A DNA stretch of 64,000 nt, from contig CAXXSR010000001.1 in NCBI GenBank assembly GCA_963662615.2, positions 672,001 through 736,000 of the forward strand, written 5' to 3'. A program made the position numbers and the translations under genes. Below are positions 42,259 to 58,258 of the stretch, one piece after another. The stretch's first letter is position 1. Each line of letters opens with the position of its first letter. Origin of the DNA: Dehalococcoidia bacterium (GTDB taxonomy: Bacteria > Chloroflexota > Dehalococcoidia > Bin125). Under the pieces are notes generated by a model. The model saw nothing but the letters and a program-made list of their open reading frames with translations. It was not told where the DNA came from and did no database searches.

Positions 42259-43545
42259 ATGAACCTCTGCGATGAAGCGTACGAACGCGCCCTGGAATCG
42301 TTGCGCGGCGCCATCACCGATCTCGGCTTCGTGGCCGCCGCGCAAGCGGATGGCCCCCGACGCCTCGGCACCTACGCCGCCGTCTGGGCCCGCGACGGCG
42401 TGATCACCGCCCTTTGGTCCCTGGAGACCGGAGAAAGCGACTTCGTCGCCTGCGGCCGGCGCACTCTGGAGGTGCTGGCCAGGCACCAGACCCACAGCGG
42501 GCAGATCCCCGCCAACGTCCAGCTCGCCGGCGAGCGCCCGGACTATTCCGGGCTGGGTGGCATCGCCAGCATCGACGCCGTGCTCTGGTTCGTGATCGGC
42601 GTTGCCCGCTTCGCCCACAGCGCGCACGATCAGGCCTTCGCCGAGCGCATGCTTCCGCACGCCGATCTCGCCATGCGCTGGCTGGGCGCCCACGACGCCA
42701 ACAACGACGGTCTGCTTGAACTGCCCGAAGCCTCCGACTGGATGGACCTCTTCCCCCGCTCCTACAACGTCCTCTTTGACGAGGTCCTGTGGTATCAGGC
42801 GCAACTGGACTACGGCGCCTTCCTCAACCACCTCGGGCTTGACGGCGCCATCAGCATCCAGCGCGCGGAGCGGACACGCGAACGGCTGCTGGAGGTGTTC
42901 TGGCCCACCTACACCGAAGCGGATTGGACCGCGCTCGGCAGCAGCGGCCGTCGCATTACGGGCGATCACCAGTACCTCCTCAGCTACGTCACGCCGTACG
43001 ATTTCTCCTGGCGCTGCGACGTCTACGCCAACCTGCTCGCTGCCCTCACCGGCCTCCTGGACGAGGCCAAACGCGAACGCCTCTACGGCTTCTTGTGGGG
43101 CGTCGGCATTGACCAGCCCTACCCGGTCCGGGTGCTCTATCCGCCTGTCCAGTCCGGCGCCGAGGACTGGAAGGACTACTTCATCCTCAACTTCCTCAAC
43201 CTGCCCTACCACTATCACAACGGCGGCGTCTGGCCCTTTATTGGTGGCTTGTGGGTCCGCTTCCTCTACCTGCTTGGCCGCACCGACCAGGCGGAGCGCG
43301 CACTCCAGAGCCTCGCCGAGGCCTGCCGCCAGGGGGTGCACGGGGAATGGGAGTTCAATGAATGGCTCCACGGCAAGACCGGCCGCCCCATGGGCAAGCC
43401 CCACCAAGCCTGGAGCGCGGCCGGCTACATCAAGGCCTATTTAGCCCTCAACGGGCGCAGCGCCCTGGAGGACTTTCTCCCCCTCGTGGAGCCGCGCGCT
43501 ACCGACAAGCGGCCCCCAGCGGGGGAAGTCCCCCCCGCATCGTGA
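42259..43545 (+). CDS. GH100-like / (alpha/alpha)6 glycoside hydrolase (invertase-like)
   Basis: VWARDG, GQIP.NV, IDAVLWF, YHNGGVWPF, FNEW.HG..G.P.G...QAWSA. Confidence 0.8.
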   Translation: MNLCDEAYERALESLRGAITDLGFVAAAQADGPRRLGTYAAVWARDGVITALWSLETGESDFVACGRRTLEVLARHQTHSGQIPANVQLAGERPDYSGLGGIASIDAVLWFVIGVARFAHSAHDQAFAERMLPHADLAMRWLGAHDANNDGLLELPEASDWMDLFPRSYNVLFDEVLWYQAQLDYGAFLNHLGLDGAISIQRAERTRERLLEVFWPTYTEADWTALGSSGRRITGDHQYLLSYVTPYDFSWRCDVYANLLAALTGLLDEAKRERLYGFLWGVGIDQPYPVRVLYPPVQSGAEDWKDYFILNFLNLPYHYHNGGVWPFIGGLWVRFLYLLGRTDQAERALQSLAEACRQGVHGEWEFNEWLHGKTGRPMGKPHQAWSAAGYIKAYLALNGRSALEDFLPLVEPRATDKRPPAGEVPPAS

Positions 43546-44353
43546 CCACGGCGCTCGCCGTCGCCTTCGCCCCGTCCAGCGCCGCCTGCTCGCCCCGCCC
43601 GCCCACCAGCCCGTCAATGAGTCCGGCGCTGAACGCATCGCCCGCACCCACGGTGTCTTTCACCTCAACATCGTCACCGCCGACGCTCCAGCGGCCCCCG
43701 TCGCGACGGTGCAGCTCCGCCCCGGCGCTTCCCTTCGTGACGCAGAGGTAGCGCAGTCGTGGCGCCGCCGCGAAGTACGCCGCCGGCTCGGCCGGCATGC
43801 CCAGCAGCTCCGCCACCTCCGTATATTCCTCGTCGTTGAGCTTGACCGCGGTCGCGCGCTCCAGCCCCCAGCGCAACACGCCGGCGCTGTAATGCGGCGG
43901 TCGCAGGTTGACGTCGAAGAAGCGCACGGCCTGAGAGGGGAAGTCCAGCAGCCGGCTCAGCGCCCGCTGCGACGTCGCCGCGCGGCAGGCCAGCGTGCCG
44001 TAATGGAGCACGTCGTGCGGCGGCCTCTCCGCCGGCCCCGCAATGGCGTCCCACGCCACCGGCGCCTGGATCGTGAAGTCGTGCCCGCCCTCCCGCAGGC
44101 GAATGCTCACTCGACCCGTGGGCAGCTCCGGATCGCCCTCTACCAAAGAGGAGTCCACGCCGCGCTCGCTCAGGGTGCGGCGAATCCTCTCCCCGTCGGC
44201 GTCGTCGCCCAGCCGCGTGATCAACTGCGCCTGCCAGCCCCGCGCCGCCAAGTGCACCGCTACGTGCAGAGGCGCCCCGGCGACCGCGCGACTGTCGGGA
44301 AATTCGTCAATGAGCGCCTCGCCGAAAAGGAGCGCGCGGCGCGCAGCGGTCAA
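43499..44353 (-). CDS. PfkB family fructokinase
   Basis: GEALID, FFDVNLR, VKLNDEE, DTVGAGDAF. Confidence 0.88.
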   Translation of the reverse strand: MTAARRALLFGEALIDEFPDSRAVAGAPLHVAVHLAARGWQAQLITRLGDDADGERIRRTLSERGVDSSLVEGDPELPTGRVSIRLREGGHDFTIQAPVAWDAIAGPAERPPHDVLHYGTLACRAATSQRALSRLLDFPSQAVRFFDVNLRPPHYSAGVLRWGLERATAVKLNDEEYTEVAELLGMPAEPAAYFAAAPRLRYLCVTKGSAGAELHRRDGGRWSVGGDDVEVKDTVGAGDAFSAGLIDGLVGGRGEQAALDGAKATASAVVTMRGGLPPLGAACR

Positions 44354-45666
44354 GAAACCGGCCCGCTCACCGCGGCGGCCGGGCGCTCCCTGGCATGACG
44401 CTCGGCCTCGCGCTCGAACAGCTCCAGCGTGCGCCCCGCGATCCCGGACCAGCCAAGCTCCCGCCGCGCGAACCGGGCGCCCTCTTCCGCCAGCCGCGCC
44501 CGCAGCTGCGGATAGCGCAGCGGCATCGCCAGCATCGCCGCGAACTCGTTCAGCCGCGTGGGGTCCGCGTAGAGGCCCGTCACCCCGAAGTCGATCATGT
44601 GGTGCAGGCCGCCGTGTACGGTGACGACGGCCGGCGTGCCGCAGGCCATCGCTTCCACCGCCGTCATCCCGAACGGCTCATACCGCGACGGCAGCGCAAA
44701 GGCGCCCGCTGCTCGGTAGTGCGCCGCCATCGCCTCATCTGGAACGTACCCGAGCCAGCGCACGTGGCTGCTCACTCCCAACTGCTCCGCCAGCGCCCGC
44801 CACTCCTCAACGAGGCGGCGGTCGGCCGGCGAGCCGGCTCCTGCGGCCAATTGCAGACGGGCGTCGCCCACCATCGCACGCAGCGGCGGCAGGGCGCGGA
44901 GGAGGAGGTCGAAGCCCTTGTTGGATGCGGCCCGGCCAATACAGTAGACGTCGTGCTCGCCAAAGCCCAAGCGCTCCCGCGCCGCCACTTCCCCGGCGAC
45001 CGCCCCTGCGACCGGGGCGTAACGCCGCTCGTCAATGCCCGGCGGGATCATCGTTGCCCGCTCTTCCGGCACGTCGTAGCGCGCGGTCAGCACCTCCACC
45101 TGCTCCGGCGACGTCGCGATCAACTGGTCGCAGCGCCGATAGACCAGGAACTCCTTGCGGATGCGCTCCTCAAAGCGAAACTCGCGTTCCAGCTCCGGCT
45201 TCGCTCCGCCCATCCCCTGCTGCTTCCACCAGCCCAGCGAGTGCGGCGTGTGGATGTGCGGGATCCGCAGCGCCTCGGCGATTCGCAGGCCCGCCCAGCC
45301 TGCGTCCCAATAGTGCGAATTGACCAAGTCGTAGCGGAGGCCGGCGTCGGCCGTCGCCGCAAGGAAGTTCGTCACGAACTCGCCAATGTGTTCGTGCATG
45401 TCCTCCTTGCGGATGAAGGCCGGCCCGCCGCAGGGGACCCGCCACACACGCAGGCCCGCCCCAGCGACGTCCACCGCCGCTTGCCCCTCGAAGCGGCGCG
45501 TGACGATGTCCACCTGATGGCCCCGCTCGGCCAGCCGCTTCCCCAGCTCCAGCACGAAGGTGACCTGCCCGCCCGTGTCCGGCTTGCCCAGCACCGGATC
45601 GGCCGCCACGTAGCCGTGCAGCGACAGCAGCAGGATCGATGCGGGCGATCCGTCCTCGCGCCTCAT
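44350..45666 (-). CDS. Mannosylfructose/sucrose-phosphate synthase-like glycosyltransferase (GT4)
   Basis: HGYVAA.P.LG..DTGGQV.FVLEL, SHYWDAG, HTPHSLG, PSRYEPFGM. Confidence 0.85.
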   Translation of the reverse strand: MRREDGSPASILLLSLHGYVAADPVLGKPDTGGQVTFVLELGKRLAERGHQVDIVTRRFEGQAAVDVAGAGLRVWRVPCGGPAFIRKEDMHEHIGEFVTNFLAATADAGLRYDLVNSHYWDAGWAGLRIAEALRIPHIHTPHSLGWWKQQGMGGAKPELEREFRFEERIRKEFLVYRRCDQLIATSPEQVEVLTARYDVPEERATMIPPGIDERRYAPVAGAVAGEVAARERLGFGEHDVYCIGRAASNKGFDLLLRALPPLRAMVGDARLQLAAGAGSPADRRLVEEWRALAEQLGVSSHVRWLGYVPDEAMAAHYRAAGAFALPSRYEPFGMTAVEAMACGTPAVVTVHGGLHHMIDFGVTGLYADPTRLNEFAAMLAMPLRYPQLRARLAEEGARFARRELGWSGIAGRTLELFEREAERHARERPAAAVSGPVS

Positions 45667-45671
45667 CACTC

Positions 45672-46460
45672 TTAGTTCCTTTCGCCCGCCACGCCCCAAT
45701 GGGCCAGCCCCTCCAAGATCCCGTGGGCGTACGCCCGCCGCGCCAGATACACATGCTCCCCAGCGGAGGCGGCCCGCAACGCCGCCTGCGCGTTTCCCAC
45801 CACAATGCCGCGCCCCGCGGCTGCCAGCAGGTCCGTGTCGTTCTCCGAGTCGCCGGCCGCGATCAGACGTTCGCGCGGCACCGCCAGGGCGGCGGCCACG
45901 TACTCCGCGGCGACGCCTTTACCGGCACCCGGCGGGATCACGTCCAGATTCGTCTCTCTGGAATGAACGACTTGATGCGGCACCCCGGTCGCGGCGATCG
46001 CCGCTCGCGCCTCGCGCAGTGGCGCTCCCGCCGGCACAGTGAAGCTCGCTCTGAACACCGTCTGAAACTCCGCCGCGTGGGGCACGAACCCCAGCCGCTC
46101 CATCGCCCGGTCGATGGGGCCCCGGTCCCAGCCGTCAAACTGCGCCGCCCAGGCCACGATGGGCTCGCCCTGCAGTTCGATCTCCGTACCCAGCGCGCCG
46201 ATGATCGCCGCGGCATGCACCGGCGTCGGCAAGGACGCTAGACTCGCCCGCACGCTCGCGCAGGGCCGGCCGGAGGCCAGGGCAAGAAGGAGATCGGAGC
46301 GGCTCCGGATGAAGGTGACGAAGGCCGCCAAGCCGTCGTCATCCCCGAGCAGCGTATCGTCTACGTCGCTGACTAGGAGCGAAGTCGTGGACTCGTCGAG
46401 CTGGGCGACCGCGTGAGACGCCCCAGCCCCGCGGTGTGCCGCCAACGCCTTGGGTCGCAT
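45672..46460 (-). CDS. HAD-IIB sucrose/mannosylfructose-phosphate phosphatase-like
   Basis: SDVDDTLLGD, ASGR, LDVIP..AGKG, AGDSEND; start uncertain. Confidence 0.85.
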   Translation of the reverse strand: MRPKALAAHRGAGASHAVAQLDESTTSLLVSDVDDTLLGDDDGLAAFVTFIRSRSDLLLALASGRPCASVRASLASLPTPVHAAAIIGALGTEIELQGEPIVAWAAQFDGWDRGPIDRAMERLGFVPHAAEFQTVFRASFTVPAGAPLREARAAIAATGVPHQVVHSRETNLDVIPPGAGKGVAAEYVAAALAVPRERLIAAGDSENDTDLLAAAGRGIVVGNAQAALRAASAGEHVYLARRAYAHGILEGLAHWGVAGERN

Positions 46461-46625
46461 CGCACCATAAGATAACATTCCCGTTCGCGCCTGTGTGTGT
46501 CGGCGACCCCTTGACGGGCACGGCGAAGGGCACGGCGGAGGGCAAGGCACGTGGGCCTGCCAGATCGCCAACCAACTGACTGGAAATCGCGATACGGGTG
46601 ACGGCGCGGCGCCAGCGACGCTCCC

Positions 46626-47585
46626 TCAGGCGGCGGTGCCGTTCATCGCCAGGTCATCCAAGAGGCGCGAGATGCTGCCGCTGGCCACCGCCACGCGACT
46701 GTCGCCCGCGCCGTAGTAGAGGCGCAGCGTGTCGCCGTCCTCGCCCACGGTGACGCCGCAGGGGAACACCACGTTCTTCACGTCGCCGCTTCGTTCGTAA
46801 TCGGCGTCTGGCTCCAGCACCCAGCCGCGGCGGCGGCGCAGGCAGCGGCTCGGATCGTCCCGATCAAGGAGCGCTACCCCCACCCGGTATACCAACGAGC
46901 CGTTGCTCCCGCCCACGCCGTGGTAGAGCAGCAGCCAGCCGGCCTCCGTCTCGATAGGCGGCGGCCCGCTCCCGATCTTCTGGTGGTCCCAAGAGCCGCC
47001 ATTGCGACGGCACAGCACAGGCCGGTGGTCCGACCATTGGCGCAGATCCTCCGAGTACGACACCCAGATGTCGCCGCTATCCTGAATCATGGGCCGGTGC
47101 AGCAACGCCCAGCGCCCGTTCACCCGCCGCGGCAGCAGCACCGCGTTCTTGTTCGGCGGCGGGAGGATGACCCCATAGCGCTGGAAGAGGCGGAAGTCGT
47201 CCGTCAGCGCCAGCCCCACGCAGGGGCCGTGCGACGAATACGCTGTGTAGGTGACCGCGTAGCAGCCCAACTCCGGCAGCCAAACCACGCGCGGGTCCTC
47301 AATCCCCAGCGCCTCCAACGGGTAGCGCTCCGGCTCCGGCGTCAGTGCCGGCGACGGCTCCACTTGCGACCCATCCAGCCCATTGACGGACCGCGCGCCC
47401 CAGAGCTGGGAACGCATCTCGTGGTCCACGGCTCGGCAAAGCAGGTACGTCTCGCCACCGGGGAGCAGGGCCGCGCCGGGGTTGAAGACGCTGCGGATCG
47501 AGATCGGCCAGTCACCCGCCGTCAGCACCGGATTCCCCTGGTGCCGCGCGAACAGCCCGTTGCCCTGGCCGTTGTTGCTGCTCAT
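46626..47585 (-). CDS. GH130 family glycosidase/phosphorylase
   Basis: VFNPGA, GIEDPR, NKNA.L.P, LHRP, PPIET.AGWL..YHG, VKNVVFPCG. Confidence 0.88.
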   Translation of the reverse strand: MSSNNGQGNGLFARHQGNPVLTAGDWPISIRSVFNPGAALLPGGETYLLCRAVDHEMRSQLWGARSVNGLDGSQVEPSPALTPEPERYPLEALGIEDPRVVWLPELGCYAVTYTAYSSHGPCVGLALTDDFRLFQRYGVILPPPNKNAVLLPRRVNGRWALLHRPMIQDSGDIWVSYSEDLRQWSDHRPVLCRRNGGSWDHQKIGSGPPPIETEAGWLLLYHGVGGSNGSLVYRVGVALLDRDDPSRCLRRRRGWVLEPDADYERSGDVKNVVFPCGVTVGEDGDTLRLYYGAGDSRVAVASGSISRLLDDLAMNGTAA

Positions 47586-48223
47586 GGCGCTCTACTTTAT
47601 GTTAACGCGCTTTCGGATTCCCATACACCATCTGGGCGACATCCGCCCGGCGATATTCGCCTCCACTATCGGCACGCCAAGTGGGGGATTCCATCGAGAG
47701 CTTCCCTATCACGCGGCCTCTCTCCCCTACGTAGACGCAACGCCGTGGCGCCTGTGACGGCTCCATGAGCGTCGATTGGCTCCCTGATTTCGGCCTGGCC
47801 GGAGGCGCCAGCGCCCGTCGCCAGTGTGGCCGGCTTCCGTGCGCGAACGGGGCGGTCCCAGCGCCGGAGGGGGAAGGGCTCCAGGTTGGCGGCAGCCGGC
47901 CGACGGCTGATCCCTGGCGGCAGCTTGGCGGAGGATCGCTGGGGGAGGGACGGCTCCGGGGGCGGATGGCCGCCGCGAGACCTCTCGGTCGCGTGCAGTC
48001 AGCGGATCGACGAAATCCTGCCCGCGGAAAAACATGGCGGCGCACGCGGAACGCTCGTGCGTCACATGAGCCCCCTGATGAGCCGCCACCCAGAACCACT
48101 ACTATTGTCGGTGTCGTTTAGTCCATTGCGCAACTGCCGCCCCAAGACGTAACTTTCACCTAACGCGGCGGCTGCGGGGCTCCCAGCTCCGCTTCCGAAA
48201 TTCGTGACGAGCGGACGCCGAAT

Positions 48224-49567
48224 ATGACGATCGTGTATCGAGGCGCCGCCTCCGCGCGGACCCTCGCGACTGCTGGCTCAGGCGCTGCAGCTGGCTCAGG
48301 CGCTGCAACCGATCAGGCGCCCACTGTCGAGGTGTGGGACCGCGGGCGCGGCTCTCTGTTGCCCACGGCCATCCCCTCCCGCGTCGCCTTCATTAGCACC
48401 CGACTCCCGCGCAAGTGCGGCATCGCCACCTTCACGGCCGACCTGCAAGCCGCCCTGCGCGACGGCTACCCCAGCGTTGAACAGGTCGCCGTCGCTCTCA
48501 GCGAGTCGCCCGGCTCCTACGACTACCCCCCCGAAGTTCGCTTCGACCTCGCCCAGAACGACCCCGCCGCCTACCAGGGAGCCGCCGTTGCCCTCAACGC
48601 CGCTGCGCCCACTGTCGTCTCCCTCCAGCACGAGTTCGGCATCTTCGGCGGCGAAGCCGGCGCCTACGTCTTGCCCCTCATGCGCCGGTTGCAAGCGCCC
48701 GTGGTGGCGACGCTCCACAGCGTCTTGGAGGGGCCCACCCCCGCCCAGCATGACGCCCTCCGCGCCGTTGCCGCGCACGCCCACCGTGTCGTGGTAATGA
48801 GCCGCCGCGGCGCCTCGCTCCTCCAGTCCCACTACGGCCTGCCCGCCGACAAGATCGATCACATTCCCCACGGCATCCCCGACCTCCCCTTCCTGGAGTC
48901 GGCGCCGTACAAGCGCCGCCTTCACCTCAGTGAGCACCAAGTCCTGCTCACCTTCGGGCTTCTGGTACCCAACAAGGGCATTGAGAACGTCATCAAGGCG
49001 CTGCCGCAGATCGCCGCCCGCCATCCCCACGTGCTCTACTTGGTTGTTGGCGAAATGCACCCCGTGGAGCGACGGCGCGACGGCGAGGGCTACCGGCGCA
49101 GCCTCCTCGGCCTCGCGCGCTCACTGGGCGTGGAGGCGCACGTCCGCTTCCACGACCACTTCGTCACTGCGCCGGAGCTACGGGATTTCGTGGGCGCCGC
49201 CGACGTCTGCCTGACCCCTTACCGCGATCGCGACTATCCCACCTCGGGGCCGCTCAGCTACGCCGTCGGCGCCGGCAGGGCGACCATCTCCACACGCTAT
49301 TCGTACGCGGAGGAGCTCCTGGGCGACGGCGCCGGCGTTCTCGTCCCCTTCCAGGACCCGGCCGACATCGCCGCCCACACCATCCGACTGCTTGCCAATG
49401 ACCAGGAGCGCCTCGCCCTGGGGCGGCGCGCCTACGACCTCGGCCGCGGCATGACCTGGCCGGCGGTCGCGCGTCGCCAGATGGAGAGCTTCGGCCGGGC
49501 CCTGCAACTCCCCGCCACCGCGACCACCACCACCGGCACTGTCGAAGTCCCCGCCCTGCGGCACTGA
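48224..49567 (+). CDS. GT4 glycosyltransferase
   Basis: PRKCGIATF, LQHEFGIFGG, IPHG, LTFGL..NKG, SG.LSYA. Confidence 0.88.
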   Translation: MTIVYRGAASARTLATAGSGAAAGSGAATDQAPTVEVWDRGRGSLLPTAIPSRVAFISTRLPRKCGIATFTADLQAALRDGYPSVEQVAVALSESPGSYDYPPEVRFDLAQNDPAAYQGAAVALNAAAPTVVSLQHEFGIFGGEAGAYVLPLMRRLQAPVVATLHSVLEGPTPAQHDALRAVAAHAHRVVVMSRRGASLLQSHYGLPADKIDHIPHGIPDLPFLESAPYKRRLHLSEHQVLLTFGLLVPNKGIENVIKALPQIAARHPHVLYLVVGEMHPVERRRDGEGYRRSLLGLARSLGVEAHVRFHDHFVTAPELRDFVGAADVCLTPYRDRDYPTSGPLSYAVGAGRATISTRYSYAEELLGDGAGVLVPFQDPADIAAHTIRLLANDQERLALGRRAYDLGRGMTWPAVARRQMESFGRALQLPATATTTTGTVEVPALRH

Positions 49568-49604
49568 CCGGGCCCGCCTCAGCGCCCTGCCCTAGGCCAC
49601 AGCC

Positions 49605-49997
49605 CTAGGCGCTGGTGTCGTCGCTGGCGGAATCTTCGCGGTGGTAGTCGTCCTGCAGCCGCACCACGTCGTCCAGCTCGGGGCTGGACGCTTCCAGGAT
49701 CTCACTGTCTTCCAGCGCCTCCAGTCGATGGATCGTGCCCGGCGGGAGATCGATCACGTCACCGGGCCGCAGCTCCAGCTCCTCCAGCGCCTCGCTCGAC
49801 GTTCCCACCGTGAGCCGCAGCGCCCCCCGCTGCACGTACATCGTCTCGTGTTTCTGCTTGTGGTACTGCAGGCTGAGCCGCTGCCCTTTCTTCACCTCCA
49901 GGATCTTCCCCGCAAAGCGGTCACTCTCCGCGTAGATGATCTCGCGGCCCCACGGCTTCGCCGCCACGCGCGGCTTCGTCACTTGCACCGGTGACAT
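49605..49997 (-). CDS. Cupin, mannose-6-phosphate isomerase type II C-terminal-like
   Basis: KPWG, RLSLQYH..KHET, HRL, ELDDVVRLQDDY. Confidence 0.82.
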   Translation of the reverse strand: MSPVQVTKPRVAAKPWGREIIYAESDRFAGKILEVKKGQRLSLQYHKQKHETMYVQRGALRLTVGTSSEALEELELRPGDVIDLPPGTIHRLEALEDSEILEASSPELDDVVRLQDDYHREDSASDDTSA

Positions 49998-50086
49998 AAC
50001 AACCCTCCATTCCTCCTTTGGCCGTGCATCGCGGCGCCGCCTGCTCCTCCCGCCGCGCCTCGCATGGATCGAACGCTCGCAGCGAC

Positions 50087-51184
50087 CTACGGGTCGCGAC
50101 GGCCCGGGTCAGAGCGGATGCCGCTGGCAGGACCGGCCGCCGCGGGCACCGTTGAATTGTGAGGGATCACTGCGTCCGTCAAGCTGGCCGCTGATCCCAC
50201 AACGGCGTCCTTCGCCAGAACACAACCGTCCACCCGCGCCGCCGCCTCTACCCGCACGCCGTCCCACAACACGCTGTCGCGAATCTCCGCGCCGCCGCCA
50301 ATCACGCAGTCGCGGCCGATAACCGCGGGGCCGCGCACCACTGCGCCCGCCTCGATCACGCTCCCTGCTCCCACCAGCAGTGGCCCCTCAAGGTGCGCGC
50401 CCGGCTCGACCGTGGCCCCCATGAGCAAAAAATCGCTCAGCGGCCACTCCAGATCCCGCCGACAGGGACCTACACCGGCCACGGCGTCCATGTTCGCGCG
50501 TCGGTACGCCGCCACCGATCCCACATCGAGCCAGTAGCCCTCATGCCGGAAGCCGTAGATCGACCGCCCCTCCGCGGCCAGCGCCGGAAACAGCGTCTCC
50601 TCCACGCGGCTGAAGGACGTCGCCGCCTCCGCCCCCAGCAGCGGCCGCGCGAACAGCCAGATGCCCGCGTTGATCCACCGCGACGGCGCCGACGCGGCCG
50701 GCGGTTTCTCCACGAAGTGGGTGATCCGGTCGGCGTCATCCAGTGCCACCACGCCGAACTCCGACGGATCCTCCACCTCCGACAGCCCGATCGTCAATTC
50801 CGCCTCCCGCGCCTCGTGGAACGCGATCAACGCGCCAATGTCCAGATCCGTGATGATGTCGCCGTTGATGACGAAGAACGGCGCGTCCCATCCCGCCGCG
50901 ATACTGGCGATGGCCCCGCCCGACCCCAGCGGCGTCTCCTCGTTGACGTAGCGCAGCTCCACTCCCAGCGCACGCCCATCCCCCAACGCCTCCTCAATGA
51001 CGTCGCCGGCGGCCGCGCCCGCCAGCGCGATCTCCGTCACGCCGGCCTCACGCAGATGCCCCAGCAGATGCGACAGCAGCGGCCTGTTGAGCACCGGCAC
51101 CAGCTGCTTGGGCGTCTTGAACGTCAGCGGTCGCAGCCGCGTCCCTTCCCCGCCCACCAGCAAGATTGCCCGCATTGACGTCAT
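50087..51184 (-). CDS. NDP-sugar synthase (mannose-1-phosphate guanylyltransferase-like)
   Basis: GGEGTRLRPLT..TPK, NGDI, FVEKP, INAG, YWLDVG, hexapeptide tail. Confidence 0.88.
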   Translation of the reverse strand: MTSMRAILLVGGEGTRLRPLTFKTPKQLVPVLNRPLLSHLLGHLREAGVTEIALAGAAAGDVIEEALGDGRALGVELRYVNEETPLGSGGAIASIAAGWDAPFFVINGDIITDLDIGALIAFHEAREAELTIGLSEVEDPSEFGVVALDDADRITHFVEKPPAASAPSRWINAGIWLFARPLLGAEAATSFSRVEETLFPALAAEGRSIYGFRHEGYWLDVGSVAAYRRANMDAVAGVGPCRRDLEWPLSDFLLMGATVEPGAHLEGPLLVGAGSVIEAGAVVRGPAVIGRDCVIGGGAEIRDSVLWDGVRVEAAARVDGCVLAKDAVVGSAASLTDAVIPHNSTVPAAAGPASGIRSDPGRRDP

Positions 51185-51303
51185 CGTGAGCCCGCGTCTC
51201 TTCGCCGCTCCTCCGCCCCCGGCCGCCGCAGGCGGCCTCCTCCACCCCCGGCCGCCGCGGGCGGCCTCCTCCACGGCGCAGCGACCTGCTGCCGGCGCTC
51301 AGC

Positions 51304-52701
51304 CTACGCGCGCGGCGTCACCTCCGGCAGCGACACCTCCGGGTCCCGGCTCAGCACCTCCCAGACGATCTCTCGAATCTCGTCCTGCCGCTCCTGCGTC
51401 TTCGCTTCAAAGCGCACCGTCAAGACGGGCCCCGTGTTGGATGCGCGCACCAGCGCCCAGCCATCGCCGAAGTCAATGCGGGCGCCGTCCACTTCCATCA
51501 CCGGGTACGCCTCACGAAAGTGGCTCACCACCTTCGCCACGACGCCGAATTTCTTGTCGTCCGCTGAAGCCAGCTTGATCTCCTCCGACGTCACATAGCG
51601 CGGCAGATCGGCGAACAGCTCCGACGCCGGCTGGTTGGCCTCCGCCAGCAGCCGCGCCACCAGGCACGCCGCGTAGACCGCGTCGTCCACTCCGTAGTAG
51701 TCCTCCGCGAAGTAGAAGTGCCCGCTCCCTTCGCCGCCCAGCAGGAAGCCCTCGTCACGCAGTTTCCGCTTCACCAGCGAGTGCCCGGTGGGGCCGAAGA
51801 CCGGCTCCCCCCCGTGCGCCCGAATGTCGTCCACCGCCGTCAGCGACATCTTCACGTCCACCAGGATGCGCGCCCCCGGATGCCGCGAGAGCAAGTCCCG
51901 CGCGAAAATCGCCACCACCGCGTCCGGGTCGTGCCGCACGCCCTGTTCGTCCACCAGGCCCATGCGGTCCCCGTCGCCGTCCCAGGCGATGCCCAGATCG
52001 GCGCCGCTCTCCCGCACCGCCTCTCGAAGCCCTTCCATGGTGGCCGGATCCTGCGGGTCCGGCAGGTGCGCCGGAAACGTGCCGTCCAACTCCAGGTTGA
52101 TGCCCTGGACCTCGGCGCCGATGCGGCGCAACGCCTCCGGCCCCGTCAGCGTCGCCACCGCGTTGGCGGGGTCCACCATCACCCGCAGCGGTCGCGACAG
52201 CTTGAACCGCGACGCCAGCAGATCCACGTACTCGGGGATCGCCTCGCGGCTCTCCAGGCCCCCCTCGCCCTCCTCGAAGTCGCCTGCCTCGGCGATCCGG
52301 CGCACCTCCTGAATCTCCTCCGGCGAGAGCGGGATCCCCCGCCGCTCCAGCAGCTTGAAGCCGTTGTATTGCGCCGGATTGTGACTCGCGGTGACGTTCG
52401 ATCCGCCGTCGATCCCCCACGACGCCGCCGCGAAATACTGCAGCGGCGACGGCGACAGCCCAATGTCCACCACTGACACGCCGCTCGCCCGCAACCCCCG
52501 CACCAGGCCGTCGCGCAGCTCATCCGATGAGGGACGGTTGTCCCGCCCCACCACCGCCCGGTCCACCCCGTATGACCGCCGCAGGAGCGTCGCGTACGCG
52601 CGCCCCACCCGCTCCGCGATCGGCCCCGTCAGGTCCTTGCCGGCGACCCCGCGGATGTCGTAGGCCCGGAACATGTGCGGATTGAGCAGCGGCGCCGCCA
52701 T
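51304..52701 (-). CDS. Phosphomannomutase/phosphoglucomutase
   Basis: FRAYDIRG, TASHNP..YNG.K, DGDGDR, GEGSGH, VRASNT. Confidence 0.93.
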   Translation of the reverse strand: MAAPLLNPHMFRAYDIRGVAGKDLTGPIAERVGRAYATLLRRSYGVDRAVVGRDNRPSSDELRDGLVRGLRASGVSVVDIGLSPSPLQYFAAASWGIDGGSNVTASHNPAQYNGFKLLERRGIPLSPEEIQEVRRIAEAGDFEEGEGGLESREAIPEYVDLLASRFKLSRPLRVMVDPANAVATLTGPEALRRIGAEVQGINLELDGTFPAHLPDPQDPATMEGLREAVRESGADLGIAWDGDGDRMGLVDEQGVRHDPDAVVAIFARDLLSRHPGARILVDVKMSLTAVDDIRAHGGEPVFGPTGHSLVKRKLRDEGFLLGGEGSGHFYFAEDYYGVDDAVYAACLVARLLAEANQPASELFADLPRYVTSEEIKLASADDKKFGVVAKVVSHFREAYPVMEVDGARIDFGDGWALVRASNTGPVLTVRFEAKTQERQDEIREIVWEVLSRDPEVSLPEVTPRA

Positions 52702-52820
52702 CGCCTCATCCGTTCCTGCTGCCTGATCGCTGCGTCGGGGAGGACGCGAGCCGATCGCCGGGCCCTTGCCGGTCACCGCTCGCTCGCCCGCAGTCTACAC
52801 GAACCCGCCACCGCCCCCGA

Positions 52821-53930: not shown

Positions 53931-54104
53931 TCGTCCTGACTTGTCCTTCGCATAGCAGAAGGAGCCTGCCTGTCCTGAGCCTGTCGAAGGATCGCAGGGC
54001 CGAAAGGGGCTCGTCGAACGGCCCATCGCGCGTGCCAAAGCCATCGCGATCTTGTCAGACGCTTCGCTGTGGCAAGGCTCCCGCGAGGCCGCGATCCCTC
54101 ACCG
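53931..54104. repeat. ~175-bp direct repeat 2 containing nested micro-repeat copy F
   Basis: Near-identical to 52821-52998. Confidence 0.88.
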
Positions 54105-54397: not shown

Positions 54398-56560
54398 ATG
54401 CAGTGTCTGATCCTTGCCGCCGGGGAAGGGAGCCGCCTGGCCTCGAACGGCGACCTCAAGCCACTCTTCCGCGTCGCCGGCCTCCCCCTCCTCGAGCGCG
54501 CCGTAGTCTCCGCCCACCGCGCCGGGGCGACGGACATCCGTGTCGTCACCGGCTACCGCGCCCCCGAGGTCGAGGCCTTCCTCACCGACCTCACCCAGCG
54601 ACGGGGCATTCCGGTCCAAGCCCTCCGCAATCCCCACTGGCATGACGGCAACGGTCGCTCCGTCCTTTGCGCCCGCGACGAGCTCGACGAGCCCTTCCTC
54701 CTCCTCATGGCCGACCACGTGCTCGACGAGACCATCCTCCACACCCTCGCCGCCGAACCCCTCGCCGCCGACGAACTAGTCCTCGCCGTCGACTCCGCCA
54801 TCGACGATAACCACACCGTCGATGTTGTCGACGCGACCCGTGTCCGCCTCGATGGGACCCGCATCGTCGACATCGGCAAGGGCATCCCCCGCTTCGACGC
54901 CTGCGACACCGGAGCCTTTCTCTGCTCGCCGAGTCTCTTCGATGCGCTCGACGAAAGCCTTTCTGACGGGGACTCCACGCTCTCCGGCGGCGTCCGCCGC
55001 CTCGCGGCCCGCGGCAAGCCCCGCGTCGTGGACATCAACGGCCACTACTGGGTCGATGTCGACACACCGGCCGACGCCGACACGGCCCGGGCGCTGCTGT
55101 ACGCCACCCTGGCCAAGCCAGACGACGGCTTGATCGCTCGCACGATCAACCGCCGCCTCTCCCTGGGCCTCCTGACGCCCTTGCTCCTGCGCTTCCCCGG
55201 CGGGATCACCGCCAACCAGGTCACGCTCCTCAGCTTCCTCGTCGCGGGCGCCGCCGCCGGCTTCTTCTTCGCTGCCCTTCCCCTGCTGGGTGGCATCGCT
55301 GTGCAACTCGCCAGTGTGCTGGACGGCTCGGACGGCGAGGTCGCACGGCTCAAGAAGCAGGAATCCGACTTCGGCCGCTTCTTCGACGCCGTCGTCGACC
55401 GCTACGCGGACGCGCTCATCCTCTTCAGCATGTTCTTCTTCGCCTGGACCAGCGTCGACCTCGAGACGCTCCTGGGCGCCGCGCACGACCCAGTGGCCCT
55501 GGGCGCCGGCCTCCTTGCCATTGCCGGCACCGTCATGGTGAGCTACACCTCCGCCAAGGCGGTGGCCGACCTCGGCTACGCCTACCAGGCTCGCTGGATC
55601 GCGAGCGGCCGCGGCCGCGACCTCCGACTCTTCCTGCTCTTCTTGGGCGGCGTGCTCGCCATCGTCCATCCCCTCGCCGTCCTGATCGCCCTCGTCGCGG
55701 TCGCGATACTGACGAACGCCATCGTCTTGCAGCGTCTGCGCCTCTCCCATGCGCAGACGGGCCGCCCCAACCCCTTCGCGGGCGCCCGGACCTCGGCCAT
55801 CGTGCTCGATTTCGACGGCACGGTCGCCGACACGATGCCGATGCTCACCGCGCTCGCCACGGGGCTGATCACCGAGCGCTACCACGTCCCGGCCGCCCGC
55901 GCCCAACGCCGTTACCGGGACACCACCGGGCTCGATTTCGCCAGCCAGCTCGAGCGGCTCTTCCCCAACCACCCCGCCAACTTCGTCGTGTCGCACCAAT
56001 TCGAGGACGCCAAGCGCGACGAGATCCTCGGGCGCCCCGTTTTCCCCGAAGTCATCTCTGCACTCGCCTTCTTCCGGACGCGCGGTATCCAGACGTTCCT
56101 CTGCAGCAGCACAACGCCCGACATCGTCGCTGCCTACGTCGAGCGCCACCGCCTCGCTGGACACCTGGACGCCACCACCGGCTTCCGGCCGGGCTACCGC
56201 AAGGACGCCCAGATCGCCGGCCTGCTTGAGGCGCACGGCATCTGGCCCGAGGAAGCTGTCTTCATCGGCGATTCGCTCGTCGACGGCGCCTTCGCCCGAG
56301 CGGCCGGTGTCCGCTTTGTCGGCCTGCAGCGCGTCTTCACGGCCGCCGAGTTTCGCGCTCGCGGCCTCGCCAGCGCCGCCGACCTCGCGGCGGTCACCCG
56401 CCTCTGGACGAAGGCGCAAGCCTTCGAGTCCTCGACCCCGCAGGCGATCGCCAGCCGACCGCCCCGCCGACCTTGGTCGGGCCTGACGGCGCTGGCACCG
56501 CCGCTACCGCCGGCGCCCGCGCCGTACCCTTCCCCCGCGACTCCGCCTGATAACGCCTGA
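54398..56560 (+). CDS. IPCT/DIPPS-like nucleotidyltransferase + CDP-alcohol phosphotransferase + HAD hydrolase fusion
   Basis: ILAAGEGSRL, LMADH, WVDVDT; DGSDGEVARL..GRFFDAVVD; LDFDGTVADT, FIGDSLVD; GGAGGT RBS. Confidence 0.87.
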   Translation: MQCLILAAGEGSRLASNGDLKPLFRVAGLPLLERAVVSAHRAGATDIRVVTGYRAPEVEAFLTDLTQRRGIPVQALRNPHWHDGNGRSVLCARDELDEPFLLLMADHVLDETILHTLAAEPLAADELVLAVDSAIDDNHTVDVVDATRVRLDGTRIVDIGKGIPRFDACDTGAFLCSPSLFDALDESLSDGDSTLSGGVRRLAARGKPRVVDINGHYWVDVDTPADADTARALLYATLAKPDDGLIARTINRRLSLGLLTPLLLRFPGGITANQVTLLSFLVAGAAAGFFFAALPLLGGIAVQLASVLDGSDGEVARLKKQESDFGRFFDAVVDRYADALILFSMFFFAWTSVDLETLLGAAHDPVALGAGLLAIAGTVMVSYTSAKAVADLGYAYQARWIASGRGRDLRLFLLFLGGVLAIVHPLAVLIALVAVAILTNAIVLQRLRLSHAQTGRPNPFAGARTSAIVLDFDGTVADTMPMLTALATGLITERYHVPAARAQRRYRDTTGLDFASQLERLFPNHPANFVVSHQFEDAKRDEILGRPVFPEVISALAFFRTRGIQTFLCSSTTPDIVAAYVERHRLAGHLDATTGFRPGYRKDAQIAGLLEAHGIWPEEAVFIGDSLVDGAFARAAGVRFVGLQRVFTAAEFRARGLASAADLAAVTRLWTKAQAFESSTPQAIASRPPRRPWSGLTALAPPLPPAPAPYPSPATPPDNA

Positions 56561-56583: not shown

Positions 56584-56695
56584 CCGTTCGCCCCGACCTG
56601 TCCTTCGCATAGCAGAAGGAGCCTGCCCGTCCTGACCTGTCCTTGCCTTCCAGGGAAGGAGCCTGCCGAAGGGCCGAGCGGCCTGTCCTGACCTT
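56584..56695. repeat. Multiply nested micro-repeat, copy G
   Basis: ccgttcgccccga[cctgtccttcgcatagcagaagga]gcct-gcccgtcctga[cctgtccttgccttccagggaagga]gcctgccgaagg. Confidence 0.85.
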
Positions 56696-58228: not shown

Positions 58229-58258
58229 TCCACTGAGTCATACCACGAGAGGTGAGTC

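What the first reader, a model, noticed from the sequence alone, without database searches (positions are those of the whole stretch)
54398..56560. IPCT-DIPPS fused to a HAD hydrolase: possible one-gene di-myo-inositol-phosphate pathway
Seen: a 720-aa ORF with nucleotidyltransferase, CDP-alcohol phosphotransferase and C-terminal HAD (DFDGT, GDSxxD) domains. Established: bifunctional IPCT/DIPPS makes phosphorylated di-myo-inositol phosphate in thermophiles; the last dephosphorylation is a separate and in many lineages unassigned step. Inference: the fused HAD is the missing DIPP phosphatase, or the enzyme makes another phosphodiester solute or lipid head group.
Basis: partly seen in the sequence, partly recalled or inferred. 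Interest (0 to 1): 0.72.

Follow-up and report, generated by a model that had tools for sequence, protein, structure and literature searches.

The report
Three-domain inositol-phosphodiester synthase with built-in phosphatase
One intact gene joins the two known enzymes that build the stress solute di-myo-inositol phosphate to a phosphatase that probably finishes the job, and the same fusion occurs in many uncultured, mostly non-thermophilic bacteria, but its product has never been measured.

Summary
Window 54398-56560 (+) is an intact 720-aa ORF with three domains: an IPCT-type cytidylyltransferase (res 1-240), a six-helix DIPPS-type CDP-alcohol phosphotransferase (241-455) and a C1-capped HAD phosphatase (467-677) with all four catalytic motifs.

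The fusion is not an indel artefact. 116 of the 120 listed homologue clusters carry all three domain families, and contigs from four other sequencing runs cover the domain junction without indels. The HAD-fused forms make one well-supported clade that spans Chloroflexota, Actinomycetota, Planctomycetota and Myxococcota. Only 1 of 24 genomes of the same family has the gene.

My best reading (about 0.5) is that one polypeptide turns CTP plus two inositol-1-phosphates into di-myo-inositol phosphate, with the HAD removing the last phosphate.
- Both arginines that bind the acceptor phosphate are conserved, and there are no extra lipid-acceptor helices.
- Inositol-1-phosphate synthase lies directly upstream in 5 of 18 metagenome loci.
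- The same HAD subfamily follows an archaetidylinositol-phosphate-synthase-like gene in an archaeal genome.
- The neighbouring genes look like a glycoside-solute pathway.

The rivals are a CDP-inositol-dependent inositol lipid, another phosphodiester, or an accessory hydrolase role for the HAD. I found no description of the fusion in print. It is a new variant of a known kind, and biochemistry is needed.

The parts
54398..56560 (+). Whole gene: 720-aa IPCT / DIPPS-like / HAD fusion (P0001), stop codon included
54398..55117 (+). Residues 1-240: cytoplasmic nucleotidyltransferase domain of the CTP:inositol-1-phosphate cytidylyltransferase (IPCT) type. The G-loop LAAGEGSRL and K21 are invariant.
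   Evidence: Pfam NTP_transf_3 9.2e-16; PDB 2xme 1.3e-22 and 4jd0 5e-11; Foldseek 2xme TM 0.89 normalised to the target; invariant columns
55118..55762 (+). Residues 241-455: juxtamembrane helix plus six transmembrane helices, a CDP-alcohol phosphotransferase of the DIPPS type
   Evidence: AF2 helices 245-265, 272-291, 295-318, 324-351, 353-392, 407-420, 426-454; 4mnd and 4o6m hits; Pfam PF01066
55322..55399 (+). CDP-alcohol phosphotransferase signature D309-x2-D312-G313-x2-A316-R317-x8-G326-x3-D330-x3-D334
   Evidence: read; all eight residues invariant in A1
55616..55735 (+). Residues 407-446: R407-D-L-R410 (RxxR) and Q445-R446. These are the equivalents of the two arginines of M. tuberculosis PIP synthase (R155, R195) that bind the phosphate of inositol phosphate.
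   Evidence: Clarke 2015, PMC4634129, passages; numbering from the alignment to 6h5a; conserved in 9 of 9 HAD-fused rows and in at least 90% of A1
55763..55795 (+). Residues 456-466: short linker between TM6 and the first strand of the HAD core
   Evidence: AF2 secondary structure
55796..56428 (+). Residues 467-677: HAD-IA phosphatase domain with a four-helix C1 cap (helices 480-543). Motif I is D471-F-D473-G-T475, motif II is S571/T572, motif III is K602 and motif IV is G624-D625-x3-D629.
   Evidence: Pfam HAD_2 and Hydrolase; invariant columns; AF2; PDB 3d6j 8.5e-8
56429..56557 (+). Residues 678-720: proline-rich tail, not conserved and predicted disordered
   Evidence: pLDDT under 50 for 678-720; unaligned tails in A1
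43499..52776 (-). Neighbouring context, mostly on the minus strand; the GT4 gene at 48224-49567 is on the + strand. It holds a fructokinase-like PfkB, a GT4 transferase (MshA- or sucrose-phosphate-synthase-like), a sucrose-phosphate-phosphatase-like HAD-IIB, a GH130 beta-1,2-mannobiose-phosphorylase-like protein, a second GT4, mannose-1-phosphate guanylyltransferase and phosphomannomutase. Together they look like a glycoside compatible-solute cluster.

Best explanation
The gene encodes a membrane-anchored trifunctional enzyme that makes di-myo-inositol phosphate (DIP) from CTP and two molecules of L-myo-inositol-1-phosphate.

Step 1: the N-terminal IPCT domain makes CDP-inositol. This is inferred from homology.

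Step 2: the six-helix DIPPS domain transfers phospho-inositol from CDP-inositol to a second inositol-1-phosphate at the cytoplasmic face of the membrane, giving DIP-phosphate (DIPP). This is inferred from homology, from the two conserved arginines that bind the acceptor phosphate, and from the absence of extra lipid-acceptor helices.

Step 3: the C-terminal HAD domain is tethered about 12 residues after the last membrane helix, on the cytoplasmic side. It removes the terminal phosphate to give DIP. This is inferred from intact catalytic motifs, recurrent fusion and gene order.

Inositol-1-phosphate comes from a separate synthase elsewhere in the genome. The solute would serve osmotic, pressure or other stress protection in an organism that does not look like a thermophile. 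If the HAD instead dephosphorylated inositol-1-phosphate before the condensation (the older proposed route), the end product would be the same.
For: Shown directly:
- The ORF is intact and the three domains are real.
- NF041135 (bifunctional IPCT/DIPPS) is by far the best NCBIfam hit: 2.2e-70, res 1-443 on profile positions 1-414 of 419.
- A. fulgidus IPCT/DIPPS (4mnd) matches at 1.1e-48. A template-free AF2 model (pLDDT 85.8) superposes on it over 451 columns, TM 0.89 normalised to the target.
- All eight signature residues of the CDP-alcohol phosphotransferase and all four HAD motifs are invariant in 18 sequences.

Acceptor:
- R410 and R446 align with MtPIPS R155 and R195, which bind the phosphate of inositol phosphate (PMC4634129, passages; alignments). 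They are kept in 9 of 9 fused rows.
- The protein has a juxtamembrane helix plus exactly six TM helices, then a soluble domain. The same paper says the six-TM form goes with soluble acceptors and that lipid-acceptor enzymes have 3-4 extra C-terminal helices.

Pathway link:
- The genome has inositol-1-phosphate synthase, as do 5 of 5 other genomes with the fusion.
- The synthase lies directly upstream of the triple-domain gene in 5 of 18 metagenome loci: L105, L107, L112, L113, L117. Nine loci have none and four have too little flank to judge.

Role of the HAD:
- The HAD subfamily is fused or operonic with IPCT-like or CDP-alcohol phosphotransferase genes in every permutation.
- In a Heimdallarchaeota record (L051) it sits 12 nt after an archaetidylinositol-phosphate-synthase-like gene (NF040950, 142.9 bits; HAD profile 5e-57). 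The product of that enzyme carries the same terminal inositol phosphate.

Separate lipid route: the genome already has a canonical PIP synthase beside its inositol-phosphate synthase, in a PI/PIM-like cluster.

Context: the adjacent genes resemble a glycoside-solute pathway with GDP-mannose supply, and PspA-like and TelA stress genes lie downstream.
Against: - There is no biochemical or metabolite evidence.
- DIP has been measured only in (hyper)thermophiles. A crude proteome estimate for this genome gives about 41 C (IVYWREL fraction 0.401; the formula is recalled).
- In this genome the gene is not next to inositol-phosphate synthase, which sits with the lipid genes instead. 0 of 7 fused loci from reference genomes have the synthase within their flanks.
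- No neighbour is conserved across fused loci.
- The two arginines are also kept in the synthase-adjacent HAD-less clade (11 of 11), which may include lipid-making enzymes. They do not separate DIPPS from a CDP-inositol lipid synthase.
- The same three Pfam families form a cluster in Bacteroides and Prevotella that goes with inositol lipid production (PMC9246714, passages).
- Relatives of the HAD also pair with CDP-alcohol phosphotransferases in which the second arginine is replaced by Phe, Leu or Ala. A universal role of removing the acceptor's phosphate is therefore not secure.
- Most members of the HAD subfamily are stand-alone (124 of the best 150 representatives are at most 338 aa). Two of them follow a phosphofructokinase-like gene.
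- By homology the HAD is only 'phosphoglycolate-phosphatase-like'.
- Inositol-monophosphatase-family genes that could do the last step exist in the genome.
Confidence: 0.5

Rival explanations
1. Inositol lipid synthesis through CDP-inositol. The IPCT domain makes CDP-inositol, and the membrane domain transfers phospho-inositol to a lipid alcohol (diacylglycerol, ether or diol lipid, or ceramide), as in the Rhodothermus marinus BEPIS route or the unconfirmed 'alternative' cluster of Bacteroides vulgatus and Prevotella. The HAD would then supply or process a lipid phosphate.
For: Heaver 2022 (PMC9246714, passages) describes an NTP transferase, a CDP-alcohol phosphatidyltransferase and a HAD hydrolase next to the inositol-phosphate synthase in species that make inositol lipids. 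In P. veroralis the last two are fused. The functions are stated to be unconfirmed. A paper quoting Jorge 2015 reports an operon of inositol-phosphate synthase, IPCT and BEPIS (PMC4587543, passage). Three-gene and two-domain versions of the module exist: L075, L133, P0173, P0200, P0219, P0246. The enzyme is membrane-embedded, and the HAD nucleophile lies about 17 residues from the membrane.
Against: A phospho-inositol transfer to a lipid alcohol leaves no phosphate to remove, so the conserved phosphatase has no obvious step. The protein has six TM helices and none of the extra C-terminal helices reported for lipid-acceptor enzymes. It keeps RDLR and QR like the enzymes that accept inositol phosphate, whereas the cluster-type transferases (L075, L133, P0173) have K-K-D-x-F there. 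The genome already has a PIP synthase in a lipid cluster. I could not test orthology to the Bacteroides or Rhodothermus proteins because no sequence of theirs was available here.
Confidence: 0.22
2. The HAD has an accessory hydrolase role that is not product dephosphorylation. It might be an inorganic pyrophosphatase that pulls the cytidylyltransferase reaction, a CMP nucleotidase that removes the transferase by-product, or a general sugar-phosphate phosphatase.
For: IPCT+HAD fusions without a membrane domain exist (P0237, P0261). One relative's best NCBIfam hits include pyrophosphatase PpaX (P0228, 43.8 bits). The HAD's nearest families are generic phosphoglycolate-phosphatase-like. Stand-alone members sit next to unrelated genes.
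Against: The AIP-synthase-like + HAD pair in L051 has no step that releases pyrophosphate. The domain order IPCT-DIPPS-HAD follows the reaction order. No solved HAD pyrophosphatase appeared among the 15 PDB sequence hits at E up to 1. Polar cap residues are invariant across fused and partnered forms (Y506, T509, Q517, E536, K539), which suggests a specific organic substrate. That last point is inference.
Confidence: 0.13
3. The enzyme makes another soluble phosphodiester, for example glycero-phospho-inositol phosphate or a precursor of a mannosylated inositol solute. Either the donor or the phosphorylated acceptor differs from inositol-1-phosphate.
For: The score against the Thermococcales IPCT/DIPPS equivalog is below its cut-off (237.7 against 580 bits). 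The fused clade is separate from the Archaeoglobus row. From recall, A. fulgidus DIPPS accepts CDP-glycerol as a donor; I could not read that paper. The neighbouring genes supply GDP-mannose and include GT4 transferases and a GH130 beta-1,2-mannoside-phosphorylase-like protein.
Against: The IPCT domain is 40-50% identical to IPCT domains encoded right after inositol-phosphate synthase. The synthase is directly upstream in 5 metagenome loci. The neighbourhood is not conserved in other fused loci.
Confidence: 0.12
4. The fusion is an assembly or indel artefact, or a decaying gene.
For: Two close relatives show the gene as two calls. P0011 (489 aa) matches residues 1-459 and P0142 (244 aa) starts at M480, and both lie on contigs of 276,440 bases. 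P0012 and P0146 likewise both lie on contigs of 17,574 bases.
Against: In the first pair the 20 residues between the two calls include motif I, so it is a frameshift in that relative and not a natural split. 116 of 120 listed clusters are fused. There are no indels in contigs of four other runs. The catalytic residues are invariant.
Confidence: 0.01

Closest known systems
Bifunctional IPCT/DIPPS of Archaeoglobus fulgidus (PDB 4mnd; IPCT domain 2xme) and the NCBIfam family NF041135
   Same: The N-terminal cytidylyltransferase, the juxtamembrane helix plus six-TM CDP-alcohol phosphotransferase, the full signature motif and the domain arrangement all match.
   Different: This protein has an extra C-terminal HAD phosphatase and is about 30% identical over the shared part. 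It scores below the Thermococcales equivalog cut-off and falls in a separate clade. The host genome shows no thermophile signature.
'Alternative inositol lipid cluster' of Bacteroides vulgatus and Prevotella (Heaver et al. 2022, PMC9246714; functions unconfirmed)
   Same: It has the same three protein families (NTP transferase, CDP-alcohol phosphatidyltransferase, HAD hydrolase) and the link to inositol-phosphate synthase. A transferase-HAD fusion is reported for P. veroralis (passages).
   Different: There the proteins are separate genes and are tied to lipid production. Here all three are in one chain, and the membrane domain is of the DIPPS/PIPS type with the RxxR arginines. I did not test orthology because no Bacteroides sequence was available. 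I could not see their Supplementary Fig. 5.
Rhodothermus marinus IPCT + BEPIS (Jorge, Borges and Santos 2015; known to me from recall and from passages in PMC4587543 and PMC9246714)
   Same: CDP-inositol serves as the head-group donor, with IPCT and inositol-phosphate synthase in one operon.
   Different: The acceptor there is a lipid and no phosphatase is involved. I could not compare sequences.
Bacterial PIP synthase and archaeal AIP synthase, with their unidentified phosphatase
   Same: They have the same membrane fold, the same inositol-1-phosphate acceptor and the same pair of arginines. The product needs a terminal dephosphorylation by an 'as-yet-unidentified phosphatase' (PMC4634129, passage).
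   Different: The donor is a CDP-lipid and there is no IPCT domain. The genome's own PIP synthase is a distinct 211-aa protein that forms the outgroup in the tree (100*).
Inositol monophosphatase as the presumed DIPP phosphatase
   Same: It would catalyse the same last step. One paper's figure legend labels it that way (PMC8397731).
   Different: It has an unrelated fold and is encoded separately. Two such genes exist in this genome, and one scores as a histidinol-phosphatase (272.6 bits against a cut-off of 275.15).

Membership tests
Bifunctional IPCT/DIPPS (EC 2.7.7.74 / 2.7.8.34) | N-terminal nucleotidyltransferase fold with the G-loop and catalytic lysine, closest to IPCT | tested here: met
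   LAAGEGSRL and K21 are invariant. PDB 2xme 1.3e-22 and 4jd0 5e-11. Foldseek 2xme TM 0.89 normalised to the target.
Bifunctional IPCT/DIPPS (EC 2.7.7.74 / 2.7.8.34) | CDP-alcohol phosphotransferase signature Dx2DGx2AR...Gx3Dx3D on TM2-TM3 | tested here: met
   D309, D312, G313, A316, R317, G326, D330 and D334 are all invariant in A1.
Bifunctional IPCT/DIPPS (EC 2.7.7.74 / 2.7.8.34) | Juxtamembrane helix plus six TM helices, whole-chain arrangement as in 4mnd | tested here: met
   AF2 helices. Foldseek 4mnd E 1.2e-26, TM 0.89 normalised to the target, 451 columns.
Bifunctional IPCT/DIPPS (EC 2.7.7.74 / 2.7.8.34) | Cationic residues that bind the phosphate of the inositol-1-phosphate acceptor | tested here: met
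   R410 and R446 align with MtPIPS R155 and R195. This rests on alignment, and the feature is shared with PIP/AIP synthases.
Bifunctional IPCT/DIPPS (EC 2.7.7.74 / 2.7.8.34) | Score above the curated NCBIfam equivalog cut-off | tested here: not met
   237.7 bits against a cut-off of 580. The model is built for Thermococcales.
Bifunctional IPCT/DIPPS (EC 2.7.7.74 / 2.7.8.34) | Makes CDP-inositol and DIPP from CTP and inositol-1-phosphate | not testable with these tools
   This needs an enzyme assay.
HAD superfamily phosphatase, subfamily IA (C1 cap) | Four catalytic motifs: DxDxT, S/T, K, (G)DxxxD | tested here: met
   D471, D473, T475; S571/T572; K602; D625, D629. Invariant in A1 and, apart from T572 (N in L075), in A2.
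HAD superfamily phosphatase, subfamily IA (C1 cap) | Helical cap inserted straight after motif I | tested here: met
   Four helices at 480-495, 499-508, 514-521 and 528-543, between strand 467-471 and the rest of the core.
DIPP phosphatase (activity, not a sequence family) | Hydrolyses the terminal phosphate of DIPP | not testable with these tools
   There is only contextual support.
PIP synthase / AIP synthase | Stand-alone protein of about 200 aa that uses a CDP-lipid donor and groups with PIPS/AIPS models | tested here: not met
   AIPS 82.1 bits and PIPS 52.5 bits, against 237.7 bits for IPCT/DIPPS. PIPS rows form the outgroup, 100*. The fused IPCT implies a CDP-inositol donor.
CDP-inositol lipid synthase (BEPIS) / Bacteroides alternative cluster | Orthology to the characterised R. 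marinus enzyme or to BVU_RS13095/13105/13115, and a lipid acceptor | not tested
   No sequence of these proteins could be fetched with the tools. Only the domain composition matches.

The most novel reading that the evidence does not exclude
This HAD subfamily may be the missing phosphatase class that finishes every CDP-alcohol phosphotransferase reaction using inositol-1-phosphate as acceptor. That would cover DIPP in this fusion and archaetidylinositol phosphate or PIP where the HAD is a neighbour, as in the Heimdallarchaeota locus. If so, the triple fusion marks a self-contained DIP pathway that has spread by gene transfer through non-thermophilic marine, sediment and soil bacteria, and DIP would be a general stress solute and not a marker of hot habitats. 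In this genome it may feed a mannosylated derivative made by the adjacent GDP-mannose, GT4 and GH130 genes.
Probability: 0.3. Interest if true: 0.75.

Novelty: new variant of a known kind. Interest (0 to 1): 0.6.

Why it matters
DIP is treated as a hallmark solute of hyperthermophiles. The enzyme for its last step, and the phosphatase that follows bacterial and archaeal PIP/AIP synthases, have no firm gene assignment in the papers I could read; PMC4634129 calls the latter 'as-yet-unidentified'.

This conserved fusion puts a candidate phosphatase on the same chain as the two known enzymes, which makes the question directly testable with one clone and one point mutant. It also extends reports of IPCT/DIPPS genes in cold, deep-sea archaea (PMC8397731, PMC10773090) to several bacterial phyla.

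If the product turns out to be a lipid instead, the protein would be a compact version of the unconfirmed Bacteroides pathway, which is also worth knowing.

Tried and rejected
- Broad taxonomy: exact look-ups of four housekeeping proteins of the genome returned no names. One search failed through my own coordinate slip and one search was the corrected look-up. I did not pursue the organism further.
- Papers not held: Rodrigues 2007 (PMC1951816), Nogly 2014 and Brito 2011 (PMC3133074). What I say about DIPPS substrate specificity and about Jorge 2015 therefore rests on recall or on citing papers. Supplements are closed, so Heaver's Supplementary Fig. 5 (the P. veroralis fusion) was not seen.
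- Searches for a published description of the fusion found none in the held library.
- Conserved neighbours across fused loci: none.
- The ESM Atlas gave only generic 'phosphoglycolate phosphatase' clusters for the HAD part.
- I hoped the arginine pair would separate DIPPS from lipid-making relatives. It does not separate the fused clade from the synthase-adjacent clade. It only separates both from a divergent K-K-D-x-F type.
- RNA evidence: no RNA holder was listed.
- Gut-metagenome HAD hits (L158, L164, L173, L177, L179, L183) are weak, at 1e-10 to 1e-15 against the HAD profile, and have no IPCT or CDP-alcohol phosphotransferase neighbour. They say nothing about the Bacteroides cluster.
- The repeats flanking the gene are copies of a small element dispersed through the genome, not a mobile-element boundary.
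Full report
**1. The observation**

The ORF listing gives 54398..56560 (+), ATG start, 720 aa. I translated it as P0001. G+C is about 0.69-0.70 across the gene, like its surroundings.

Pfam finds:
- NTP_transf_3 at residues 3-132 (9.2e-16);
- CDP-OH_P_transf at 271-436 (2.6e-8);
- HAD_2 at 468-642 (1.7e-12) and Hydrolase at 466-637 (7e-13).

[quoted passage not shown] It matches at 2.2e-70 and 237.7 bits, with residues 1-443 on profile positions 1-414 of 419. The score is under the cut-off of 580, but that model is an equivalog built for Thermococcales. Next come archaetidylinositol-phosphate synthase (82.1 bits) and PIP synthase (52.5 bits) on the membrane part, and phosphoglycolate-phosphatase models (about 31 bits) on the C-terminal part.

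Among solved structures the best match is A. fulgidus IPCT/DIPPS, 4mnd (1.1e-48, residues 1-443). It is followed by AF2299 (2e-24), the isolated IPCT domain 2xme (1.3e-22) and T. maritima IPCT 4jd0 (5e-11). The HAD part best matches 3d6j (4.1e-7 for the whole protein, 8.5e-8 for the domain alone).

**2. Is the fusion an artefact?**

No. The word-indexed homologue search returned 280 proteins at E up to 0.001 among 8000 scored candidates, and 120 were listed. Of those, 116 carry a nucleotidyltransferase, PF01066 and HAD families together. Two lack the N-terminal family and two lack the HAD.

An alignment of 18 homologues at 44-88% identity is collinear through the junction between the membrane domain and the HAD. 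It has as invariant columns all eight signature residues of the CDP-alcohol phosphotransferase (D309, D312, G313, A316, R317, G326, D330, D334) and the HAD catalytic residues (D471, D473, T475, S571, T572, K602, D625, D629).

Near-identical sequence is held by 17 runs of 7 studies. I laid contigs of four runs from four studies, leaving out the best holder, which may be the source. They cover all 30 bins of the stretch with no insertion or deletion listed, and one contig spans 55382-56650 with one difference and no gap.

Two close relatives do show two gene calls. For one of them, P0011 matches residues 1-459 and P0142 starts at M480. The missing 20 residues include motif I, so this is a frameshift in that relative and not a natural split.

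**3. Anatomy**

A template-free AlphaFold2 model built on the 18-sequence alignment has mean pLDDT 85.8 and pTM 0.63. It shows:
- a Rossmann-like N-terminal domain up to about residue 236;
- a juxtamembrane helix at 245-265;
- six long helices at 272-291, 295-318, 324-351, 353-392, 407-420 and 426-454;
- a linker of about 12 residues;
- a HAD core starting with strand 467-471, carrying a four-helix cap (480-543) inserted straight after motif I, which is the C1 cap of subfamily IA;
- a disordered proline-rich tail at 678-720.

Foldseek places the model on 4mnd over 451 columns (E 1.2e-26, TM 0.89 normalised to 4mnd, rmsd 3.3). With a cytoplasmic N-terminal domain and six membrane passes, the HAD must also be cytoplasmic. 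Its nucleophile lies about 17 residues from the end of TM6. This topology is an inference from the model.

**4. Which acceptor?**

Clarke et al. 2015 (PMC4634129; I read passages) make three relevant points:
- R155 and R195 of M. tuberculosis PIP synthase bind the phosphate of inositol phosphate;
- the six-TM architecture is shared by family members that use a soluble acceptor, while lipid-acceptor enzymes have three or four extra C-terminal helices;
- the phosphatase that follows PIP synthase is 'as-yet-unidentified'.

I fixed the numbering by aligning the genome's own PIP synthase to 6h5a, then aligned DIPPS-type domains to it. R407-D-L-R410 corresponds to the RxxR motif (R152...R155), and Q445-R446 corresponds to Q194-R195. 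Both arginines are present in 9 of 9 HAD-fused rows, 4 of 4 PIP synthases and 11 of 11 HAD-less rows that lie beside an inositol-phosphate synthase gene. The Archaeoglobus row has RDER, and its second arginine sits three columns away.

This fits an inositol-phosphate acceptor, as does the absence of extra helices. It does not separate the fused clade from the synthase-adjacent clade, which might contain lipid-making enzymes.

A divergent type does differ. In L075, L133, P0173, L032, L081 and L074 the motif reads K-(K/R)-D-x-(F/L/A).

**5. Distribution and history**

A scan of one genome per species gave 80 loci. A tblastn and profile census of them found:
- the HAD in the same ORF as IPCT and DIPPS in 7 loci: L004-L010, from Dehalococcoidia and other Chloroflexota, a Deltaproteobacteria-labelled MAG, Candidatus Scalindua sediminis, Solirubrobacterales and Acidimicrobiales;
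- a separate HAD gene in 2 loci, L051 and L075.

I built a quick maximum-likelihood tree of the membrane domain. It used 54 rows: of the 109 ORFs that hit the profile, those with at least 170 profile positions and E under 1e-9. All 9 fused rows fall in one starred clade (SH-aLRT 99), together with one Methanophagales row whose ORF ends without a HAD. This clade is apart from the synthase-adjacent clade, from the Archaeoglobus row and from the PIP synthase outgroup (100).

Among 24 other genomes of the window's GTDB family, only one (G021, 77% identity over residues 1-690) has the gene. Five of 16 genomes from other families of the same class have adjacent but separate IPCT and DIPPS genes at about 40% identity, without a HAD. 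The gene is therefore accessory and patchy, and the clade crosses phyla, which points to gene transfer.

In the genome itself the HAD profile hits only this gene.

**6. Link to inositol phosphate supply**

The genome has one inositol-1-phosphate synthase, at C1:1497384, about 770 kb from the gene. It sits in what looks like a phosphatidylinositol / PIM lipid cluster:
- an inositol-monophosphatase-family gene that scores as a histidinol-phosphatase;
- the synthase itself;
- two PIM-acyltransferase-like genes;
- a PHP-family metallohydrolase;
- a GT4 transferase;
- a 211-aa PIP synthase.

So a canonical inositol lipid route exists separately.

All 5 of 5 other genomes with the fusion that I checked also have the synthase, not adjacent. 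In metagenome contigs fetched with the HAD alignment (80 loci), 17 have the triple-domain ORF and one has it split. The synthase lies directly upstream in 5 of these 18 (L105, L107, L112, L113, L117). Nine have enough upstream sequence and no synthase, and four cannot be judged. A two-gene unit from glucose-6-phosphate to the final product therefore exists in some lineages. No other neighbour is conserved.

**7. What the HAD does**

By homology it is only a phosphoglycolate-phosphatase-like HAD-IA. Context says more.

A profile of ten HAD domains, run against 1.84 billion representatives, finds 235 proteins at E up to 1e-30 and 2921 at E up to 1e-10. Of the best 150, 13 are 591-768 aa, 13 are 373-482 aa and 124 are at most 338 aa.

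I scanned ten of the longer ones. They include CDP-alcohol phosphotransferase + HAD proteins (P0173, P0179, P0200, P0219, P0246) and IPCT + HAD proteins with no membrane domain (P0237, P0261). L075 and L133 have the three functions as three adjacent genes. The three functions are thus joined in every permutation, which is classic evidence that they act in one pathway.

The most telling case is L051, a Heimdallarchaeota-labelled record. A 197-aa ORF there is best matched by archaetidylinositol-phosphate synthase (142.9 bits, full length, under the cut-off of 180). It is followed after 12 nt by a 220-aa HAD that matches the fused-HAD profile at 5e-57, and the pair sits among housekeeping genes. 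That synthase needs no CDP-inositol and releases no pyrophosphate. What it shares with DIPPS is a product that ends in inositol phosphate.

This favours the idea that the HAD removes that phosphate. Against a universal role:
- the cluster-type partners carry a differently built acceptor site;
- their HADs have S-S-N-N where this one has C-S-S-T at motif II;
- two stand-alone members follow a phosphofructokinase-like gene.

**8. Local context**

Upstream, mostly on the other strand, lie:
- a fructokinase-like PfkB (43499-44353);
- a GT4 transferase whose best models are MshA (210.3 bits, cut-off 462.5) and sucrose-phosphate synthase (165.5 bits);
- a sucrose-phosphate-phosphatase-like HAD-IIB;
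- a GH130 protein like beta-1,2-mannobiose phosphorylase;
- a second GT4;
- mannose-1-phosphate guanylyltransferase;
- phosphomannomutase.

This looks like a pathway for a glycoside solute made through a phosphorylated intermediate, with GDP-mannose supply. Downstream are two membrane proteins with no family hit, a PspA-like protein and a TelA protein. The setting suits a stress-solute role, but it is not conserved in other fused loci, so it counts as weak support.

**9. Temperature**

From 1467 long high-GC3 ORFs the IVYWREL fraction is 0.401. By the Zeldovich regression (recalled) this gives roughly 41 C. The estimate is crude, but it does not suggest a thermophile.

Papers report IPCT/DIPPS genes in cold deep-sea and hadal Thaumarchaeota and propose a role against pressure (PMC8397731 and PMC10773090, passages). 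I found no paper that links DIP to the bacterial lineages seen here, and none that describes the HAD fusion.

**10. Verdict**

The most likely function is one-chain synthesis of di-myo-inositol phosphate, with the HAD as the finishing phosphatase (confidence about 0.5). The older route in Roberts' 2005 review, which even posits a multifunctional DIP synthase that also dephosphorylates inositol phosphate (PMC1224877, passage), would give the same end product.

The main rival is an inositol lipid made through CDP-inositol, as proposed but not confirmed for Bacteroides (PMC9246714) and shown for Rhodothermus (recalled, and quoted in PMC4587543). I could not place those proteins in my trees. Other rivals are an accessory hydrolase role for the HAD and a different phosphodiester.

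The protein is a new variant of a known kind. It is widespread in uncultured bacteria, is annotated only generically, and can be tested with a single clone.

Noticed in passing
window 43499-52776: A run of genes that looks like a glycoside compatible-solute pathway: a fructokinase-like PfkB, a GT4 transferase (MshA- or sucrose-phosphate-synthase-like), a sucrose-phosphate-phosphatase-like HAD-IIB, a GH130 beta-1,2-mannobiose-phosphorylase-like protein, a second GT4, mannose-1-phosphate guanylyltransferase and phosphomannomutase. It might make mannosylfructose, a mannosyl-inositol compound or a similar solute. The product is unknown.
   Followed up: partly
G000:C1:1495700-1504000 (L084 7739-15963), outside the window: A phosphatidylinositol / PIM-like cluster: an IMPase-family gene (HisN-like), inositol-phosphate synthase, two PIM-acyltransferase-like genes, a PHP/CehA-family metallohydrolase, a GT4 and a PIP synthase. 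The PHP hydrolase inside the cluster is a candidate for the unidentified PIP phosphatase.
   Followed up: partly
window 52817-52998, 53927-54104, 56584-56641 (also 866-943 and 18232-18264): A small intergenic repeat whose core of about 75 nt occurs some 23-27 times in the genome. Copies lie about 290 nt upstream of the gene and 24 nt downstream of it. Its function is unknown; it may be a REP-like or terminator-like element.
   Followed up: partly
L051 7920-9188 (Heimdallarchaeota-labelled record): An archaetidylinositol-phosphate-synthase-like gene followed after 12 nt by a HAD of the same subfamily as the fused domain. The HAD is a candidate AIP phosphatase.
   Followed up: partly
L075 7857-10739 and L133 1263-5099: Three adjacent genes: a CDP-alcohol phosphotransferase of a divergent type (K-K-D-x-F in place of RDxR), a HAD and an IPCT-like protein. 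Two-domain fusions of the same parts also exist (P0173, P0200, P0219, P0246; P0237, P0261). This may be the counterpart of the Bacteroides 'alternative' cluster.
   Followed up: partly
L045-L066 (Acidobacteriota, Vicinamibacterales and others): An IPCT-like gene is followed by a protein of about 750-860 aa whose CDP-alcohol phosphotransferase domain lies near residues 560-740, behind a long unassigned N-terminal part. This is a different and unexplained architecture.
   Followed up: no
L130 4679-6555 and L132 4671-6615 (metagenome contigs): Stand-alone HADs of the same subfamily (4e-48 and 9e-50 against the profile) directly follow a phosphofructokinase-like ORF of about 410 aa, with no IPCT or CDP-alcohol phosphotransferase nearby.
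   Followed up: no
P0011 + P0142, and P0012 + P0146 (close relatives, 79-88% identical): The gene appears as two calls in two relatives. In the first pair the break lies between residues 459 and 480 and removes HAD motif I, so it is a frameshift, either real decay or an assembly error.
   Followed up: partly
window 57395-58876: Two adjacent predicted membrane proteins (277 and 205 aa) with no Pfam hit lie just downstream, followed by a PspA-like gene and a TelA gene.
   Followed up: no
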